Shown: piece after piece, positions 2,361 through 36,274 of the stretch
Numbering within the stretch: position 1 is the first letter of the stretch
Layout of the letters: every line of letters begins with the position of its first letter
Source: Eledone cirrhosa
Lineage: Eukaryota
Assembly (NCBI GenBank): GCA_964016885.1
Contig: OZ024743.1
Coordinates: forward strand, 105,028,001-105,092,000
Reading direction: 5' to 3'
Length of the DNA: 64,000 nt
Program-made: the position numbers and the translations under genes
Notes under the pieces: generated by a model
Told to the model about the DNA's origin: nothing
The model's input: only the letters and a program-made list of their open reading frames with translations
Database searches by the model: none

Positions 2361-2710
2361 TTTGATAATGATGATACTGAGAGAGAAAAAGATGATAAAA
2401 GATACTGCTGAAAATGATAGTGCTTTTCATGATAATAATAAGTGAACGCAGATAGCTATTATACAAATCTCACCGAACGAGATATAGCAGTATCTTCCAT
2501 ATTTGAATTAAATTTTCATTGTTTGGTTAAAAAGTTGTTAAGAGAAAGTTCATGGAGATTGTTACGTTTTTACTAGAACGTAACATTAGAGTGAAATAAA
2601 TGTTAATTCTCTATTAACTCTTAACATCCTGCAATAATTTAGCAGAAAATACCTCAAACAAGATTTGTTAATTCAAATGATTAGAGTATCTTTACTATGG
2701 ACAGAACCTC

Positions 2711-4080
2711 ATGAAAATGTGCTATGCAACCAGGCAGTTCTTCAATAGCTGCCCATCGGAACCGGCATACAGGGACTCCTGGCACCTCATTGTCAAGCTT
2801 GACATGAGGAATGCCTTCAACTCTTTACGCCGGGATCATCTGTTCGAGGCCTACCTCAGCCGAGCCCCCTCTGCCTACCCGCTGGCCTACCTGTCATATG
2901 GAGTCCCGAGCATGCTCCTTGCTGCTGATACGGTCATACCCTCGGCTACTGGGGTCCAACAGCTTTGCCGGCGTATCTGTCATCGGTAACCTCGTGCCGC
3001 ATCCTCGTCAGCAGGGTTCTTCAAAACACAACAGAACCCTCTGTGTTCAGAGAACGTGAGGCGGCCTGTGAGACGTGGGACAGGCTGGGACTTAGCCCAG
3101 TAGAGGGCCGTCCTTCTTCTCCCCCTGTTGACGTCAAGTACCCCCAACGCACTTGGGATGCAATCCAGTGCAGCCTGGCCTCAGACAGGCTCATGCGCCA
3201 GCTCGACCAGCACCGCCTTGCTTGTTTCCGTGCGGCCTCCAAACCCCACAGTAGTGCCTGGCTCCATGCCCTGCCCTCCTCCACTGGCACGCAACTAGAC
3301 AAACATAGCCTGCGAATCGGCGTTTCCCTGAGGCTCGGCCTCCGGATCTGCCAGCCACACCAATGTCGCTGCGGTTCCACCGTGGACTCTTTCGGCCTCC
3401 ACCCGCTTTCCTGTCGCCACAGTGCCGACCGCATTCCACGCCATGCTGCCCTCAACGAGATCATTAAGCATGGCTTGGACGCTGCAGGCTTCCCTTCCCA
3501 GCTCGAGCCGGTGGGGCTGGATCGAGGGGACGGCAAAAGGTCAGATGGCATGACCATCTTCCCGTTCCGCGGTGACAAACCCCTCGTCTGGGATGCCACA
3601 TGCACCGACATTTTCTGCAGCCGCAACCTGGTGCAGTCTGCGACTGACCCAGGTTCTGCTGCACGTCGGGCTGAGGGGGCCAAACTCCTCAAAAACCGTT
3701 CGCTCTCCGACAGGTTTGCGGTCGTACCCCTGGCAGTGGAGACTTCTGGTGTCCTCGGGCCCAGGGTAACCTCCTTACTCACCACCATAGGCGCTGAGCT
3801 GGCCAGTCGCAGGTGTGAGCCCCGCGAGCTGGCGTGGCTTTTACAGCGCGTCTCCCTTGCCGTCCTACGGGGAACCGCCTTCTCCATTCTGTCCGCCGGG
3901 GCTGTGGGTGGGCCCCATCGCGTACCGTTCTAGTTGTTGTATACAGATATTAACTTATCAATCCATTGTCCTAATCCAAAAGTTAAATGCTTATTATTTT
4001 TTCGCTTTTTAGGTTTATATTTTTCTAGTTTTTCCTTCTATCAACTCCAAATTTTAATAAAATGACTGCATAACAAAACA
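2711..4080 (+). mobile_element. CRE-clade non-LTR retrotransposon, 5'-truncated and internally deleted (RT fragment plus zinc knuckle and RLE, then 3' UTR)
   Basis: ORF 2711-2989 has VKLDMRNAFNSLRRD and SATGVQQ (RT motifs). ORF 2965-3933 has LPAYLSS..AWLHALPS..CRCG..HPLSC..RHAALNEII..EPVGLDRGDGKRSDG..LVWDATC..VPLAVETSGVLG..LLQRVSLAVLRG. GC-rich island in AT-rich flanks. Confidence 0.88.
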
Positions 4081-13882: not shown

Positions 13883-14451
13883 GTTCATATGTATTACATA
13901 ATATAATTATTAATATGTCCGTAATATTATCGATAAGTATGCTCTGGAATTATGCTCTGGAATACGAAATTTTCGCAACTAATTTCCATTGAGCTTTTAT
14001 GGGATTTGCTTATGGCTATTTTATGTACTGACCCCTTAAATGGTTGAGCTGCTTCATTGAAAGAATTGGTGCGCTATTTCTAGCTCCCCTATCAAACTCT
14101 TTGTTGTCCAATTGATGCAAAAAGCACACGGTGTCTCGTTTATTTCAGCATGGCGTTACCTGCTTAACTTAACAACACAAATGAATCAGTTTTCAACTGA
14201 TCTCAATGGATAGCCTTTATTTTGTAGCACTAAAAAGACATACCTACTGATGAAAACCAAGTCTTTTATTTAATTAATTATCTTATTTATTTTAACTATG
14301 GTAAGTAATAACTTTATGCCTGATTATTTTCTGTTTTGTCATATGTACTACAAGGCATTCGGGGTGGCCTTCTCACAATACAACAGATTTTACAGGCAGT
14401 CTCTGGATTGAATTTTCATTTTTCAATTACCTTGTATCTGTCCCCTATCTT

Positions 14452-14500
<49 letters not shown>

Positions 14501-14505
<5 letters not shown>

Positions 14506-14971
14506 GATAACAAGTTATCGTTATAGGTAATCCAGTTAGAGGTTGTGAGTACTTTGCGCCGTGGATAGTTTTAACGTACGGCTTTGTTTGACTCAACAAG
14601 GTGCTTCCATAGTTATGCAGCGAGTTCGCGGTAATTTCTATGCAAATTATACTTGGAGTAATAATAGTGAAATGATGGAGAGTAACATGGTTGGCTGTAC
14701 AATAAGGGGCTTTATTTAAAGTACTGACAATCGTTTCGTTGATCAGATGAGTCCAGAGTTCGCTAATCGCTTGAAGTTTCGTCACTCGATCTCCAATACA
14801 TTATATCTACGTACTCTGATGCGTTGACCAGAGGTAAATAATGAATTGGAGATCGAGTGACGCAACTTCAAGCAATTAGCGAACTCTAGACTCACCTGAT
14901 CAACGAAACGATTGTCAGTACTTTAAATAAAGCCCCTTATTGTACAGCCAACCATGTTACTCTTCATTCTT

Positions 14972-14978
<7 letters not shown>
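14501..14978. mobile_element. Non-coding hammerhead-bearing element family 1 (Penelope-like/retrozyme type) with ~140-bp inverted arms
   Basis: 14664-14804 is the reverse complement of 14838-14978 with a few mismatches; flanked by (TA)n at 14454-14503 and 14976-15017; contains a hammerhead fold at 14811-14921. Confidence 0.7.
14811..14921 (+). ncRNA. Type I hammerhead ribozyme motif (A9C core variant, palindromic minimal stem III)
   Basis: Stem I GTACT(14811-15)/AGTAC(14917-21); core CTGATGC; stem II GTTGAcCAG/CTGaTCAAC; GAAA 14905-08; stem III ACGATTGT; GUC cleavage triplet ending at 14916. Confidence 0.72.
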
Positions 14979-15019
<41 letters not shown>

Positions 15020-15086
15020 CAGGTTTAGCAAATAATGAAAAAGTTTCAAAATAAATTTTAAAAAATTGACTTTACTTACTATAGTT

Positions 15087-15170
15087 ACCTTTACCGAATC
15101 GGTTTCGAATCTCAAAAATAAACGGAGACCATACAGCCTTCGTTGCAAAGAAAGATTCTCGTCAGAAGGT
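15087..15170 (-). ncRNA. Type I hammerhead ribozyme (inverted copy)
   Basis: Reverse complement of 15734-15817 with core and all three stems intact. Confidence 0.85.
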
Positions 15171-15733
15171 TCTTTTCATTCGAAGAATATAAAATTCATG
15201 AATTTAAATTACGAACTAGCGCTATCCAAAACTGTTCCCGAGATGAGAGTAAATGAAGTGGAATCAATTTTTTCAAGGGCCGAAGTAAAGATAGAGGCAG
15301 AGGGAGGTAGGTCAAACGGCCACCACTATCACTAGCAGCAGTCGGGACGACCAAATTTTTTTCTCAACATAGAGGAGAATAGTAATAATAGGATATGTGT
15401 TCCTACACGCACAAAGCGCTAAGGGACACATGTATTGTCCAACCATATGCCAATTTGGTTCAATGGCAGGTTAATAAATTAACGAGCCACAACATATATA
15501 ATCAGGTTTAGCAAATAATGATAAAGTTTCAAAATAAATTTTAAAAAATTTGGTCGTTCCGACTGCTGCTAGTGATAGTGGTAGCCGTTTGACCTACCTC
15601 CCTCTGCCTCTATCTTTACTTCGGCCCTTGTAAAAATTGATTCCACTTCATTTACTCTCATCTCGGGAACAGTTTTGGATAGCGCTAGTTCGTAATTTAA
15701 ATTCATGAATTTTATATTCTTCGAATGAAAAGA

Positions 15734-15817
15734 ACCTTCTGACGAGAATCTTTCTTTGCAACGAAGGCCGTATGGTCTCCGTTTATTTTTGAGATTCGAA
15801 ACCGATTCGGTAAAGGT
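15734..15817 (+). ncRNA. Type I hammerhead ribozyme
   Basis: Stem I ACCTT(15734-38)/AAGGT(15813-17); core CTGACGA(15739-45); stem II GAATCT(15746-51)/AGATTC(15792-97) closing a 40-nt loop; GAAA(15798-801); stem III ACCG-ATT-CGGT; GUA triplet with predicted cleavage after 15812. All conserved core positions match the consensus. Confidence 0.88.
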
Positions 15818-15996
15818 AACTATAGTAAGTAAAGTCAATTTTTTAAAATTTATTTTGAAACTTTTTCATTATTTGCTAAACCTGATTATATATGTTCTGG
15901 CTCGTTAATTTATTAACCTGCCATTGAACCACATTGGCATATGGTTGGACAATACATGTGTCCCTTAGCGCTTTGTGCGTGTAGGAACACATATCC

Positions 15997-16042
<46 letters not shown>

Positions 16043-16096
16043 AAGTTAAATAAAAGTCAAATGATTAAAATTTAGCTTCGTTTATTACTGCGTTTA

Positions 16097-16097
<1 letters not shown>

Positions 16098-16127
<30 letters not shown>

Positions 16128-16190
16128 CATACATACATACATACATACATACATACATACATACATACATACATGTATATAAATATATAC

Positions 16191-16231
<41 letters not shown>

Positions 16232-16262
16232 CGTGTTTGTGTGTATGTATGTATACATATAT
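16098..16262. repeat. (CATA)n and (TA)n microsatellites
   Basis: Direct reading. Confidence 0.95.
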
Positions 16263-16269
16263 ATTTATG

Positions 16270-16878
16270 TCAGGACACCAGTTGGTGCTACTGGTAACAT
16301 GTATCCCGGTACAACTCGTCTCATGGTCGGGTCGTTGGCGACTAAACTGGCAACCCCACCAAGGTTTCTTGGTGAGGAGAGTGACTTTGGACATCCTGCA
16401 GAACTAAAAACAAAACATGTCAAAGGGCAAGGGAGCTCTTAAGAGTCAATGGCCATCCAAAATCACCGGGAGAGATGACCCCTTAGCCTTTGTCAAGGCA
16501 GAATTCTAGGAGAAGGAAAACTCTGATATAACACCTGCAACCCTGATGGTATCCAATGATGTTGACTTGTTCTTCTTTTTGGTAAATATCATCTTGGTTA
16601 AGAGAGTGGGACTGGTTTTGTGCAGTGCCTTTGCTCACTATAAACGCTTCACGGCACAGGCATTGCTTTATATCTGGAGATCTCTCTGCACTTGTCGTCA
16701 CATGGTACCATGGGCCCAGCACTATGTGTCAATAATTGTCACAAGTGTAGTGTTTGTACCATAGTTTTCAAGTCGCTGGCTGGACTAAAAAGTCACACTC
16801 GTTCAGCGCATCGGTAGGGGTTCTCCTACATGGATATAAAGTAGTGGCCGTACTCGAAAACGAGTTTGCAGCCACCAT
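16270..16878 (+). mobile_element. Non-autonomous RTE-derived element (5' UTR joined to the 3' end)
   Basis: Shares its 5' block (GCTACTGGTAACATG..CAACC..GGACATCCTGCAG..AAAGGGC..GAGTCAA) with copies at 35770 and 37685. The 3' part encodes CSVCTIVFKSLAGLKSHTRSAH (RTE-like C-terminal zinc finger) and ends GTGGCCGTACTCGAAAACGAG..GCAGCCACCAT. Confidence 0.7.
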
Positions 16879-29950: not shown

Positions 29951-30100
29951 CTGTGTTTGTCCATGTTATTTCCGAGCAGAATGCATCTCGTCCCTTGGTA
30001 TAGAATGATCCATTCCTTTACTAAAATGCTAGAGTGTATAATGGGCGATATTTTGTTGCTATTCCAAGGACAACAAGTGACAACCTAGTGGTATCATGTT

Positions 30101-30290
30101 GGAGGCATTTGGCAGTATCGGTAGAGGGTCGGACGCAATGCTTTCCAGCATAGTTAAGTCCCTTTACGATCTGAGTTCAAATCCCGCCGAGGTTGACTTT
30201 GCCTTTCATCCTTACGAGGTCGATAAAATAAAGTACCAGTAATGCACTGGGTATTTGCTGGCCTTGTGCCTAAATTAGAAACAATTATTT
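30101..30290 (+). mobile_element. SINE family A, full length (short-tail variant)
   Basis: A box, B box GAGTTCAAATCC, core and tail GCCTTGTGCCTAAATTAGAAAC. Confidence 0.9.
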
Positions 30291-31459: not shown

Positions 31460-32160
31460 GAGGCCAACAATTTGAGACGGAGTGGAAAGTCGTTTATATT
31501 GTTGACCTTAGTACTTGACTGGTACTTTATTTTAGCGAACCTGGAAGGATAAAAGGCAAAGTTAACCTCGGCAGGAATTGAAAATCAAGTTTAGCTTTCA
31601 TCATTCAGGGGTCGATAAAATAAAGTACCTTTCAAATACTGAGGTTGAGGTAAACAACTTTTACCCATCAGCCATATTTTTGACATTGTGCCTAAATTAG
31701 AAATCATTATTGAGTCGGACGCCATGTTTTGCAGCAAAGAGTTACGGCCCTTTATGGTCTGAGTTCAAATCTCGCTGGGGTTAACTTTGCCTTTCATCCT
31801 TATGGGGTCGATGAAATAAAGTACCAGTAATACCCTGGGATAATTGTTGGTCTTGTGCTAAAAGTAGAAACAATTATTAATAGTAAAGCGGTGGATTGGC
31901 AGTATCGGTAGAGCGTCGGGCGCCATACTTTGCAGCATAGAGTTACGGCTCTTTATTATCTGATTTCAAATCCCGCGAGGTCGATACAATAAAGTACCAG
32001 TCACGCACTGCAGTCGATTTAATCGACTTGCCACTCCCCCCCAAATTGCTGGCCTTGTGCCTAAAGTAGAAACAATTATTATTAGTAGTAGGCAGAATTG
32101 GTAGAGCACCGGACAAAATGCTTTATGGCATTCAGTCACGTCTTTCTATGTTCTGAGTTC
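31460..32160. mobile_element. Cluster of SINE family A copies (one minus, then head-to-tail plus copies)
   Basis: Core motif at ~31520(-), 31600, 31790 and 31980(+); heads at 31886 and 32090. Confidence 0.85.
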
Positions 32161-33984: not shown

Positions 33985-34208
33985 GGGCGGTGGATTGGCA
34001 GTATCGGTAGAGAGTCGGACACCACGCTTTGCAACATAGAGTTACGGCCATTTACCGTCTGAGTTCAAATCTCGCCGAGGTTAACTTTGCCTTTCATCCT
34101 TACGGGGTCGATAAAATAAAACACCAGTATCGTACTGGCGTCGATTTAATCGATTTTCCCCTACCCCTCAAATTACTGGCCTTATGTCTAAATTAGAAAT
34201 TATTATTA
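33985..34208 (+). mobile_element. SINE family A, full length (long-tail variant) with 26-bp flanking direct repeat
   Basis: Complete A box, B box, core and tail; ATTAGAAATTATTATTATAGTTTAGG at 33956-81 and 34192-217. Confidence 0.92.
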
Positions 34209-34319
34209 TAGTTTAGGTGTATGGAGTGGCAATAAGCATCAGTTATTATCAGTAAGAAAAGTATAATAAAACCAACAAATACAGAAAAAAGAATAATGAC
34301 AACAACAATAACAATATAA

Positions 34320-34594: not shown

Positions 34595-35400
34595 CCTGGC
34601 TGACTGGACAGGCGAAGGTCTCTGTCCCCCCAGTATACAAATGTCCAATGCAACTGGGACGACATCAAATGTAGGTTTTCTTTCAGGCGAATCGAGTTTT
34701 GCTTGGACTAACACCGACTCACCTGTCTCCGCCCCGCATTACACCCAAACAGCGGCGTACGGCTCAACTCGGTGACCTCCTCATCAACCGGTACTATTCT
34801 TGAGTGGCATCCGAGTGTCTCAACACCACGACCTCCGCGTGTGTGAGCCACTTAAATGCTGTTGCGGGGCGGTCGTTGACAAGTTCGGCTTGTACCCAGA
34901 GCGCAGGCTGGTTCTCACGACATGCCATTCTCAACGACATATTGAGAAGGAGCCTGGACGCAGCTGCTTCCCATCACAACTGGAACCAGCGTGCCTTGAC
35001 CGCGGAGATAGCAAGCGCACCGGTGGAATCACCCTCTTCCCATTCGAAGGGAGTAGATCCCTCATCTGGGACGCCACATGTGACACGTTCTCCGCGACCA
35101 ACATAGTCGCTTCGGCCACAAACCCCGATACTGCGACCCGCAATGTAAGTGGAAACGAAGATAAACAAATACTGGGGATTGTCTGGTTCTCTTCGCACCG
35201 GTCGCCGTTGAGACCTCAGGCGTACTTGAACCCCGTACAGCTGAGCTCCTCTGCAAGATCGGAACGTCAGCAGCCCGTCTGAGGTAGGAATCCTGTTAGG
35301 AGCCCCGTTAGGTAGAGTGGCTATTGCAGCGGGTGTCGCTGGCCATTGTCCTCGGGCATGCTTTTGCGGTTCTGTCCGCGGGGTCCTCCTCTTACCGCCA
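34595..35400 (+). mobile_element. Second CRE-clade fragment (RLE region), frameshifted
   Basis: Homologous to 3070-3900: QCNWDDIKC, SSTGT, CCCGAVVDKFGLYP, RHAILNDILRRSLDAA, FPSQLEPACLDRGDSKRTGGITLFPFEGSRSLIWDATC, PVAVETSG, WLLQRVSLAIV. Confidence 0.85.
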
Positions 35401-35769: not shown

Positions 35770-36274
35770 GGTCGCTCTTCAGCGCTACTGGTATGTAACC
35801 CAGTACAACCTGTGGGTGGTCGGGTCATCGGCTACAAAACCGGCAACCACACCAAGCTTGCTTGGTAAAGAGGCTGATACTGGAAACCCTACGGGATGAA
35901 AAACAAAGTCCGTCAACGGGCGGAGGAACTCAGGAGAGTCAATAAAGTTGTTTTTGATTTGTGCAGCGAGAGATTCCCAGTTTTCATTAAGACATCTGTC
36001 TAGAAGGTCACTATATAAAACCTGTGCCGGCATTTGCATCCAATGATATAAACCAGTTCTGCATTCGATGTTCAGAGAGTGGGATTGGCCCCGTGAAAAG
36101 CCTTTCCTCACTTAAAAAGCTTCATGCACAGGTATCGCTTGATATGAGACATTTTAAAGATGCATGCCATTGCTGGCTATAGGCAAGTCAGTAGCAGGAT
36201 TAATCAACCACGTCCATGATGCTGAAGCTTAAGTATAAAGTGATGGCATTAGTCGAAATCGAGTGCGCCATCAT
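35770..36274 (+). mobile_element. Non-autonomous RTE-derived element, copy 2
   Basis: Colinear with 16270-16878 at the 5' end, in GAGAGTGGGA..CCTTTCCTCACTTAAAAAGCTTCA and at the 3' terminus; embedded in (GTAT)n. Confidence 0.7.

What the first reader, a model, noticed from the sequence alone, without database searches (positions are those of the whole stretch)
14454..16036. (TA)n-embedded cluster of two unrelated hammerhead-carrying non-coding elements: candidate Penelope-like/retrozyme system
Seen: three (TA)n tracts separate two elements with no obvious mutual similarity. Both have a type I hammerhead with a long loop II and palindromic stem III, a sense copy running into (TA)n, and an upstream inverted copy of their own 3' part. 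Both inverted arms start within the same motif AGTAATAATAG (14657-67, 15381-91). Known: Penelope-like elements carry hammerheads in their pseudo-LTRs and often show inverted or tandem partial copies; animal non-LTR retrozymes are small hammerhead repeats that yield circRNAs. Inference: non-autonomous ribozyme retroelements mobilised by a PLE and primed at TA tracts. Whether these families are already described cannot be judged from here.
Basis: partly seen in the sequence, partly recalled or inferred. Interest (0 to 1): 0.85.

Follow-up and report, generated by a model that had tools for sequence, protein, structure and literature searches.

The report
Head-to-head ribozyme retroelements in TA repeats
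Two short non-coding elements sit as head-to-head pairs between TA microsatellites, each with a hammerhead-ribozyme-like motif, and are likely passengers copied by Penelope-like retrotransposons, a known kind of element whose layout here suggests that both cut DNA strands start a copy.

Summary
The layout is (TA)25 ←A−|A+→ (TA)21 ←B−|B+→ (TA)19: two unrelated non-coding elements, each a head-to-head pair with both 3′ ends in (TA)n. B is a circularly permuted 483-nt unit. One arm is 540 nt (1.12 units), the other 460 nt, they meet at an 8-nt overlap, and each carries a complete canonical type I hammerhead that the copy runs through uncut. A has one near-canonical hammerhead (C at core position 9, probably impaired). 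Laid reads show B is a diverse repeat family (1,026 contigs in one run, also in a second organism), with (TA)n junctions and the unit-to-unit join in other copies. Covariation was inconclusive, A's family was not examined, and no RT/GIY-YIG partner was found. Everything matches published Penelope-like element (PLE) insertions: inverted head-to-head copy, one-sided tail, palindromic stem III, TA bias. The idea that animal retrozymes are non-autonomous PLE ends is also in print. Best reading: PLE-mobilised passengers, written in by priming on both nicked strands of the self-complementary TA target from a longer-than-unit RNA. New member of a known kind; moderate interest.

The parts
14454..14503 (.). 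(TA)25 tract, left target remnant
14504..14804 (-). A− arm (301 nt): starts inside hammerhead loop II, carries only the 3′ half of the hammerhead, passes the CTATTATTACT motif and continues 160 nt (long tail or rest of the unit) into (TA)n
   Evidence: 141 nt shared with A+, 8 mismatches
14657..14667 (-). CTATTATTACT motif in A−; the equivalent point in A+ is the 3′ junction with (TA)n
14805..14978 (+). A+ arm (174 nt): begins about 6 nt before hammerhead stem I, ends CACTA|TATA in the middle tract
14811..14921 (+). Type I hammerhead-like motif A: stems I/II 5/5 bp, loop II 72 nt, stem III ACGATTGT (near-palindrome, no loop), GUC site after 14916, C instead of A at position 9
14976..15017 (.). 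(TA)21 tract shared by the 3′ ends of A+ and B−
15011..15550 (-). B− arm (540 nt): one full 483-nt unit plus a 57-nt terminal direct repeat (15011-15067 / 15494-15550); 3′ end at internal TTATATAT
   Evidence: family data
15087..15170 (-). Complete canonical type I hammerhead, copy in B−
15362..15384 (-). 23-nt linker ('tail') present only in B−; joins the unit's end to its start
   Evidence: spanned by variant contigs X1 record 6, X4 records 12 and 15
15381..15391 (-). CTATTATTACT motif in B−; the equivalent point in B+ is the 3′ junction with (TA)n
15536..15551 (.). Head-to-head junction of B: 8-nt overlap of the two arms (15543-15550) inside a 7-bp palindrome
15543..16002 (+). B+ arm (460 of the 483 nt of the unit), 7 mismatches to B−, ends CCTAT|TATA
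15734..15817 (+). Complete canonical type I hammerhead, copy in B+: CUGACGA / GAAA core, stem I 5 bp, stem II 7 bp (G10.1-C11.1), 38-nt loop II with an inner hairpin, stem III ACCGA-T-TCGGT, GUA site after 15812; equals the predicted MFE fold
16000..16037 (.). (TA)19 tract, right target remnant

Best explanation
[quoted passage not shown] Shown: the layout; B's 483-nt unit closed on itself; B's multi-copy family with TA junctions. Inferred steps: (1) The PLE protein nicks both strands of a (TA)n tract; because (TA)n is self-complementary, both nicks give the same ...TATA-3′ primer. (2) Each primer starts reverse transcription at an internal AU-rich site of the RNA (TTATATAT, CTATTAT in B; CACTAT in A). 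Different start sites on the two sides leave the one-sided 'tail'. (3) The template is longer than one unit and not cut at the hammerhead (a tandem read-through transcript or a ligated circle), since B− is 1.12 units and both B arms cross the cleavage site. (4) The two cDNA ends are joined at a short overlap (8 nt in B), giving the head-to-head pair. (5) The second element landed later in a TA tract beside the first. The hammerhead would cut only as a dimer through its palindromic stem III; this copy of A is likely impaired.
For: Anatomy. Family behaviour of B: 1,026 contigs of X1 laid (150/325/335/216 at 99+/95-99/90-95/<90% identity), 2,309 reads of X13, 30 contigs of X4, 6 of X5 (another organism). 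(TA)n loose ends at the TTATATAT site in 13 X1 contigs and 176 X13 reads, and 8 nt from the CTATTAT site in one X4 contig. The end-to-start join is spanned by three variant contigs. X1 summed depth rises from about 4-5k to 97k in the element's 5′→3′ direction (Spearman 0.92 over 17 bins chosen afterwards), as 5′ truncation gives. A one-base deletion in 296 of 723 X13 reads turns stem III into a perfect 10-nt palindrome. Neither arm can be copied from the other alone: B− has a 23-nt linker that B+ lacks; A− has 160 nt that A+ lacks and A+ about 33 nt that A− lacks. Literature: purified anole Poseidon protein nicks and extends both strands of AT-rich DNA, starts internally at two sites whose spacing is the tail, and uses uncleaved RNA (PMC11167929). 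Inverted 5′-truncated copies, tails and (TA)n bias are PLE traits (PMC8557442; PMC3846280). PLE hammerheads have palindromic stem III and occur as opposite-strand pairs 100-700 bp apart (PMC4209133).
Against: No autonomous partner was found: no RT or GIY-YIG hit in 56 of 83 window ORFs, and no genome is held. Covariation is not shown: 0 of the 40 displayed substitutions (of 164) fall in the 32 core/stem I/stem III positions, only P=0.053, and one common stem II change (15109) would break a pair unless an undisplayed partner change exists. The depth gradient is seen in X1 only, not in X13 or X4, and the tool says summed depth is no copy number. No displayed loose end shows (TA)n exactly at CTATTAT in other copies (188 rows not displayed). 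In the anole system the start site is not homologous to the target, whereas three of four junctions here are TA-like. B's junction lies in a 7-bp palindrome, which favours the fold-back rival. No read spanning the head-to-head junctions was examined.
Confidence: 0.62

Rival explanations
1. Same identity (PLE-mobilised passengers), but the inverted arm is made by fold-back self-priming of one cDNA at a junction palindrome, not by a second target-primed copy.
For: Proposed for rotifer PLEs because inverted junctions carry palindromes (PMC3846280, passages). B's junction has a 7-bp palindrome and its arms are 98.5% identical. B+ is contained in a circularised B−.
Against: Fold-back needs an extra template jump for B and cannot supply the arm-specific sequence of A. 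A's junction has only 3-bp palindromes. The anole protein extends both strands in vitro.
Confidence: 0.15
2. The arms are 5′-truncated stumps of ordinary autonomous PLEs (pLTR plus tail), not separate non-autonomous families. Most likely for A.
For: Most PLE insertions are truncated and single. A's unit is not closed at this locus. B's depth falls toward its 5′ side.
Against: B's end joins its own start with no ORF between, here and in three variant contigs. No ATG-led ORF in any arm. The 99-codon open frame in A− (reached by 0.9% of shuffles) hit only two repetitive bacterial-type proteins.
Confidence: 0.13
3. B is a classical non-LTR retrozyme whose template is specifically a circular RNA made by hammerhead cleavage and ligation.
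For: Permuted, longer-than-unit copy crossing the cleavage site. Unit length within the reported 51-972 bp. Circular templates were proposed for PLEs and retrozymes. This is a special case of the best explanation.
Against: Only one hammerhead per arm, so this locus is not a same-strand tandem. Circular fold z = -1.7 against 60 shuffles. Hammerhead cleavage was dispensable in the anole system. An uncut tandem transcript explains the same anatomy.
Confidence: 0.06
4. TA-targeting MITEs or fold-back DNA elements, or an assembly artefact at microsatellites.
For: Long inverted repeats between TA tracts. No single record spans the laid stretch.
Against: The outer ends are not each other's inverted repeats but different internal positions of one unit. 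The arms differ at 7 of 460 and 8 of 141 sites; at 5 of the 7 in B the family majority has the B+ letter, so the arms are distinct molecules. The hammerhead motifs exceed chance.
Confidence: 0.04

Closest known systems
Insertion units of endonuclease-positive Penelope-like elements (pLTR, adjacent inverted 5′-truncated copy, optional 30-40 bp tail; PMC3846280, PMC8557442, PMC11167929)
   Same: Head-to-head inverted copy with a short overlap (15 bp in rotifer Pen2a, 8 nt in B), one-sided 3′ extension, AT-rich or (TA)n target, type I hammerhead crossed uncut.
   Different: No ORF. B's extension leads back into the start of the same unit. A's extension is 160 nt. Three of four junctions resemble the target, unlike the anole in vitro start site.
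Metazoan non-LTR retrozymes (PMC7229834; bioRxiv 10.64898/2026.07.22.740005)
   Same: Non-coding, low-GC repeat unit with a type I hammerhead; proposed to be non-autonomous PLE-end derivatives.
   Different: Not a same-strand tandem at this locus (1.12 units at most) but head-to-head pairs in (TA)n. Loops II of 38 and 72 nt. No RNA evidence.
PLE-type dimeric hammerheads (PMC4209133)
   Same: Short stem I (5 bp), longer stem II, G10.1-C11.1, palindromic stem III, opposite-strand pairs within 100-700 bp.
   Different: No extra base between positions 9 and 10.1. Long structured loop II; Rfam models miss these motifs. A has C9.
Cephalopod Naiad PLEs (PMC8557442 supplement)
   Same: (TA)n preference.
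   Different: Naiads lack canonical hammerheads and cephalopod ones are reported long inactive. The octopus Naiad ends I read showed no evident likeness to A or B by eye.

Membership tests
Autonomous EN+ Penelope-like element | ORF with telomerase-like RT and GIY-YIG endonuclease | tested here: not met
   No such ORF in the arms; no Pfam hit in 56 of 83 window ORFs
PLE-type insertion unit | Adjacent inverted copy in head-to-head orientation | tested here: met
PLE-type insertion unit | 3′ extension (tail) on only one arm | tested here: met
   23 nt then unit start in B, 160 nt in A; lengths differ from the published 30-40 bp
PLE-type insertion unit | 3′ ends in AT-rich or (TA)n targets, variable 5′ truncation | tested here: met
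   All four arms; for B also other copies. Truncation gradient in X1 only
PLE-type insertion unit | Sequence homology to the pLTR of an autonomous PLE | not testable with these tools
   No genome; Dfam and Repbase not available; octopus Naiad ends compared by eye only
Type I hammerhead ribozyme (element B) | CUGANGA / GAAA / UH core with three stems | tested here: met
   (MFE fold equals the hammerhead fold); no Rfam hit
Type I hammerhead ribozyme (element A) | Conserved core including A9 | tested here: not met
   C9; predicted C9-G12 pair; family state not examined
Type I hammerhead ribozyme | Stem covariation and core conservation across copies | tested here: inconclusive
   0 of 40 displayed changes in core/stems I and III, P=0.053; unphased; 124 rows not displayed
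Type I hammerhead ribozyme | Self-cleavage | not testable with these tools
   Needs in vitro assay
Non-LTR retrozyme | Non-coding repeat unit joined head to tail | tested here: met
   B only: 483-nt period, join in three variant contigs; not shown for A
Non-LTR retrozyme | At least two consecutive same-strand units with complete hammerheads | tested here: not met
   At this locus 1.12 units at most; other loci not examined
Non-LTR retrozyme | Expressed as linear and circular monomer RNA | not testable with these tools
   No run on record as RNA was available to lay
MITE (TA-targeting) | Matching terminal inverted repeats at the two outer ends | tested here: not met
   Outer ends map to different internal unit positions

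The most novel reading that the evidence does not exclude
A and B are two undescribed, unrelated ribozyme passengers that share one PLE driver and one start signal (CTATTATTACT, at the TA junction of both sense arms). They replicate through circular RNA, carry long-loop-II hammerheads that Rfam misses, and record a general rule: PLE head-to-head inversions arise because a self-complementary (TA)n target is primed on both strands. Such a high-copy family would be a natural data set to decide between double priming and fold-back and between circular and tandem templates.
Probability: 0.22. Interest if true: 0.62.

Novelty: new member of a known kind. Interest (0 to 1): 0.4.

Why it matters
How Penelope-like elements make their inverted head-to-head copies and tails, and what their hammerheads do, is still open (PMC8557442, PMC11167929). 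B is small, young (arms 98.5% identical) and multi-copy, and its arms record start sites, a longer-than-unit template and the joining overlap. Counting such pairs across the genome would test double priming against fold-back directly. It also shows that hammerheads with long loop II escape Rfam, so such families may be under-counted.

Tried and rejected
Rfam: no hammerhead at gathering score over the window or at E<=10 over 14000-16500; the 46 hits there belong to other families, the strongest on microsatellites. Own genome not held. Read ends piling up in X13 at 15064, 15196, 15266, 15477/15480 and 15540 (6 of 7 displayed places) coincide with AATT sites and are taken as a restriction-library artefact, not element ends. 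Metagenome scans: 0 hits for an A motif; 13 of 13 hits for a B motif have no CUGANGA upstream and no similarity beyond the pattern, so are chance. The 99-codon frame in A−: two weak hits to repetitive bacterial-type proteins, rejected. No common hairpin around the shared motif in A and B (z +1.5 and -1.5), and the circular fold of B is not significant. No tRNA gene. No other copy of A or B in the window. Look-ups of earlier findings by sequence and place were blank. I found no text on the effect of an A9C change in the passages and section read.

Full report
Verdict. The feature is real and is best read as two Penelope-like-element (PLE) passenger insertions in one TA microsatellite. It is a new member of a known kind, with anatomy that is useful for an open mechanistic question.

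1. What is there. Three (TA)n tracts lie at 14454-14503, 14976-15017 and 16000-16037. Between them are two elements with no overall similarity (best local score matched by 7% of 300 shuffles) and no other copy in the window. Each element is a pair of arms that read outward from a central junction: A− (14804→14504, 301 nt) and A+ (14805→14978, 174 nt); B− (15550→15011, 540 nt) and B+ (15543→16002, 460 nt). All four 3′ ends run into (TA)n. B− has a 483-nt period: its first and last 57 nt are a direct repeat, and B+ aligns without gaps to the doubled unit with 7 mismatches in 460. B+ lacks only a 23-nt linker that in B− joins the unit's end to its start. The B arms overlap by 8 nt inside a 7-bp palindrome. 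The A arms share 141 nt with 8 mismatches; A− has 160 further nt at its 3′ end and A+ about 33 nt at its 5′ end.

2. Hammerheads. A descriptor scan of both strands of the window gave three hits: 14811-14921(+), 15734-15817(+) and 15170-15087(−). In 6.0 Mb of simulated sequence the relaxed descriptor gave 22 hits, and none reached the stem lengths of A or B. B is canonical (CUGACGA, GAAA, GUA; stems 5/7/5 bp; 38-nt loop II with an inner hairpin) and its predicted MFE fold is the hammerhead itself. A has C at position 9; the fold pairs it with G12, and stem III is a loopless near-palindrome. From recalled knowledge, A9 and G12 form a sheared pair and G12 is catalytic, so this copy is probably impaired; I found no text on this change in what I read. 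Against: Rfam reports no hammerhead and the folding z-scores are only −0.1 and −1.4.

3. The shared motif. AGTAATAATAG occurs only at 14657 and 15381. Read in the element sense it is CTATTATTACT, the point at which A+ and B+ pass into (TA)n while A− and B− read on. As a longest common word it is borderline (91 of 2,000 shuffles reach 11 nt). Given that it sits at the same functional position in both, a rough after-the-fact estimate is about 1e-4. It may be a common start signal. However, no displayed loose end shows (TA)n exactly there in other B copies, and no common hairpin surrounds it.

4. Family data, B only. No genome is held. Fifteen runs were listed; I laid 4 of them on 15040-15550, one B unit, and did not lay A. 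X1 gave 1,026 contigs (150/325/335/216 at 99+/95-99/90-95/<90% identity), X13 2,309 reads, X4 30 contigs and X5, another organism, 6 contigs. (TA)n loose ends lie at the TTATATAT site (13 X1 contigs, 176 X13 reads) and at 15396 (one X4 contig); nine X1 contigs at 15402 show a (TAA)n-like end that could also be a diverged unit; 188 rows were not displayed. The end-to-start join is spanned by X1 record 6 and X4 records 12 and 15, which carry 10-28 other letters, so closure of the unit is a family trait. X1 summed depth climbs from 4-5k to 97k in the element's 5′→3′ direction (Spearman 0.92, 17 bins chosen afterwards; the edge bin 15040 and bins from 15364 up were left out) and is lowest on the linker (3.2k). 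X13 and X4 do not show this gradient, and the tool states that summed depth is no copy number. Six of seven displayed read-end pile-ups in X13 are AATT sites, a library artefact. Of 164 substitution rows 40 were displayed: none in the 32 core/stem I/stem III positions (P=0.053), two in stem II (one wobble-compatible, one that breaks a pair unless an undisplayed change compensates) and one in loop II. A one-base deletion in 296 of 723 X13 reads makes stem III a perfect palindrome. By eye, two single X5 contigs keep the loop II hairpin arm with GCAA or GUAA in place of GUAU. Covariation is therefore suggestive, not shown. At 5 of the 7 differences between the B arms the family majority has the B+ letter, so the arms are distinct molecules and not an assembly echo; the junctions themselves were not checked in reads.

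5. No coding partner. No arm has an ATG-led ORF of note. A 99-codon open frame in A− (0.9% of shuffles) hit only two repetitive bacterial-type proteins. Pfam found no RT or GIY-YIG domain in 56 of the 83 non-satellite ORFs of at least 65 aa; 27 were not sent. Metagenome pattern scans gave nothing real.

6. How it most likely works (inferred). A PLE protein nicks both strands of (TA)n. The target is self-complementary, so both nicks expose the same primer. Each primes at an internal AU-rich site of the RNA; different sites on the two sides give the one-sided tail. B− is longer than one unit and both B arms cross the cleavage site, so the template was an uncut tandem transcript or a ligated circle; the DNA cannot tell these apart. 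The two cDNA ends are joined at a short overlap. The anole Poseidon protein nicks and extends both strands of AT-rich DNA, starts internally at two sites that define the tail, is predicted to be a dimer and uses uncleaved RNA (PMC11167929, parts 1-2 of 4 read); its start site, unlike three of four junctions here, is not target-like. The main rival is fold-back self-priming (PMC3846280, passages). B's junction palindrome favours it, but it needs an extra jump for B and cannot supply the arm-specific sequence of A.

7. Comparison with what is known. Inverted 5′-truncated copies, tails and (TA)n bias: PMC8557442 (passages; supplement searches and part 24 of 59) and PMC8969392 (passages). PLE hammerheads with palindromic stem III, opposite-strand pairs and the circular-template idea: PMC4209133 (parts 1-2 of 4). 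Retrozymes as PLE-dependent repeats and circles: PMC7229834 (passages) and bioRxiv 10.64898/2026.07.22.740005 (abstract, introduction, part of methods, most of results, discussion; supplements not seen). It works like a PLE insertion unit but is not an autonomous PLE, and at this locus it fails the tandem definition of an active retrozyme. The host is likely an octopod; this rests on a recalled SINE motif and was not tested. An Octopus vulgaris repeat paper lists 31 recently active Penelope-like families and does not use the word ribozyme (PMC13282606, passages; its supplement was listed, not read, and its repeat library was not seen). Searches for octopus with hammerhead and Penelope, octopus with retrozyme, twin priming with PLE terms and retrozyme with head-to-head listed no paper describing these families or the double-priming reading. 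The library lacks most subscription papers, and Dfam and Repbase could not be checked, so the families may already be catalogued.

8. Scores. Interest 0.40; new member of a known kind. Most novel reading (shared driver and start signal, circular template, double priming as the rule): probability 0.22, interest 0.62 if true.

Noticed in passing
window:30874-30981: A 12-bp perfect inverted repeat (TTTTCTATCCAC / GTGGATAGAAAA) directly flanks an 84-nt (TA)n tract, making the whole stretch a palindrome; possibly a tiny remnant of a TA-targeted event or a fold-back repair.
   Followed up: no
window:644-1087(+), 2681-3930(+), 34776-35279(+): ORF remnants that by eye resemble the C-terminal part of non-LTR retrotransposons with a restriction-like endonuclease (recalled motifs); Pfam gave no hit.
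   Followed up: partly
window:18590-18780, 30100-30290, 31700-32080, 33990-34210, 38240-38430: Many 81-90% identical copies of a short interspersed repeat that I recall as an octopod SINE family; the basis for the host guess, not tested.
   Followed up: no
window:16270-16880, 35770-36130, 37680-37880: Related fragments of another repeat, at least two of them directly after (TACA/TATG)n microsatellites, recalled as resembling the 5′ region of an RTE-type LINE.
   Followed up: no
window:14504-14530: The 3′ end of A− carries a 7-bp hairpin just before the TA junction, and an ATGCAAAT octamer lies at 14640 on the + strand; significance unknown.
   Followed up: no
window:14805-14811: A+ begins about 6 nt before hammerhead stem I, whereas B+ begins 191 nt before it.
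   Followed up: partly
window:43731-62490: About 19 kb of (CAA/CAGTAA)-type satellite; tandem repeats cover 37,337 of 64,000 bases.
   Followed up: no
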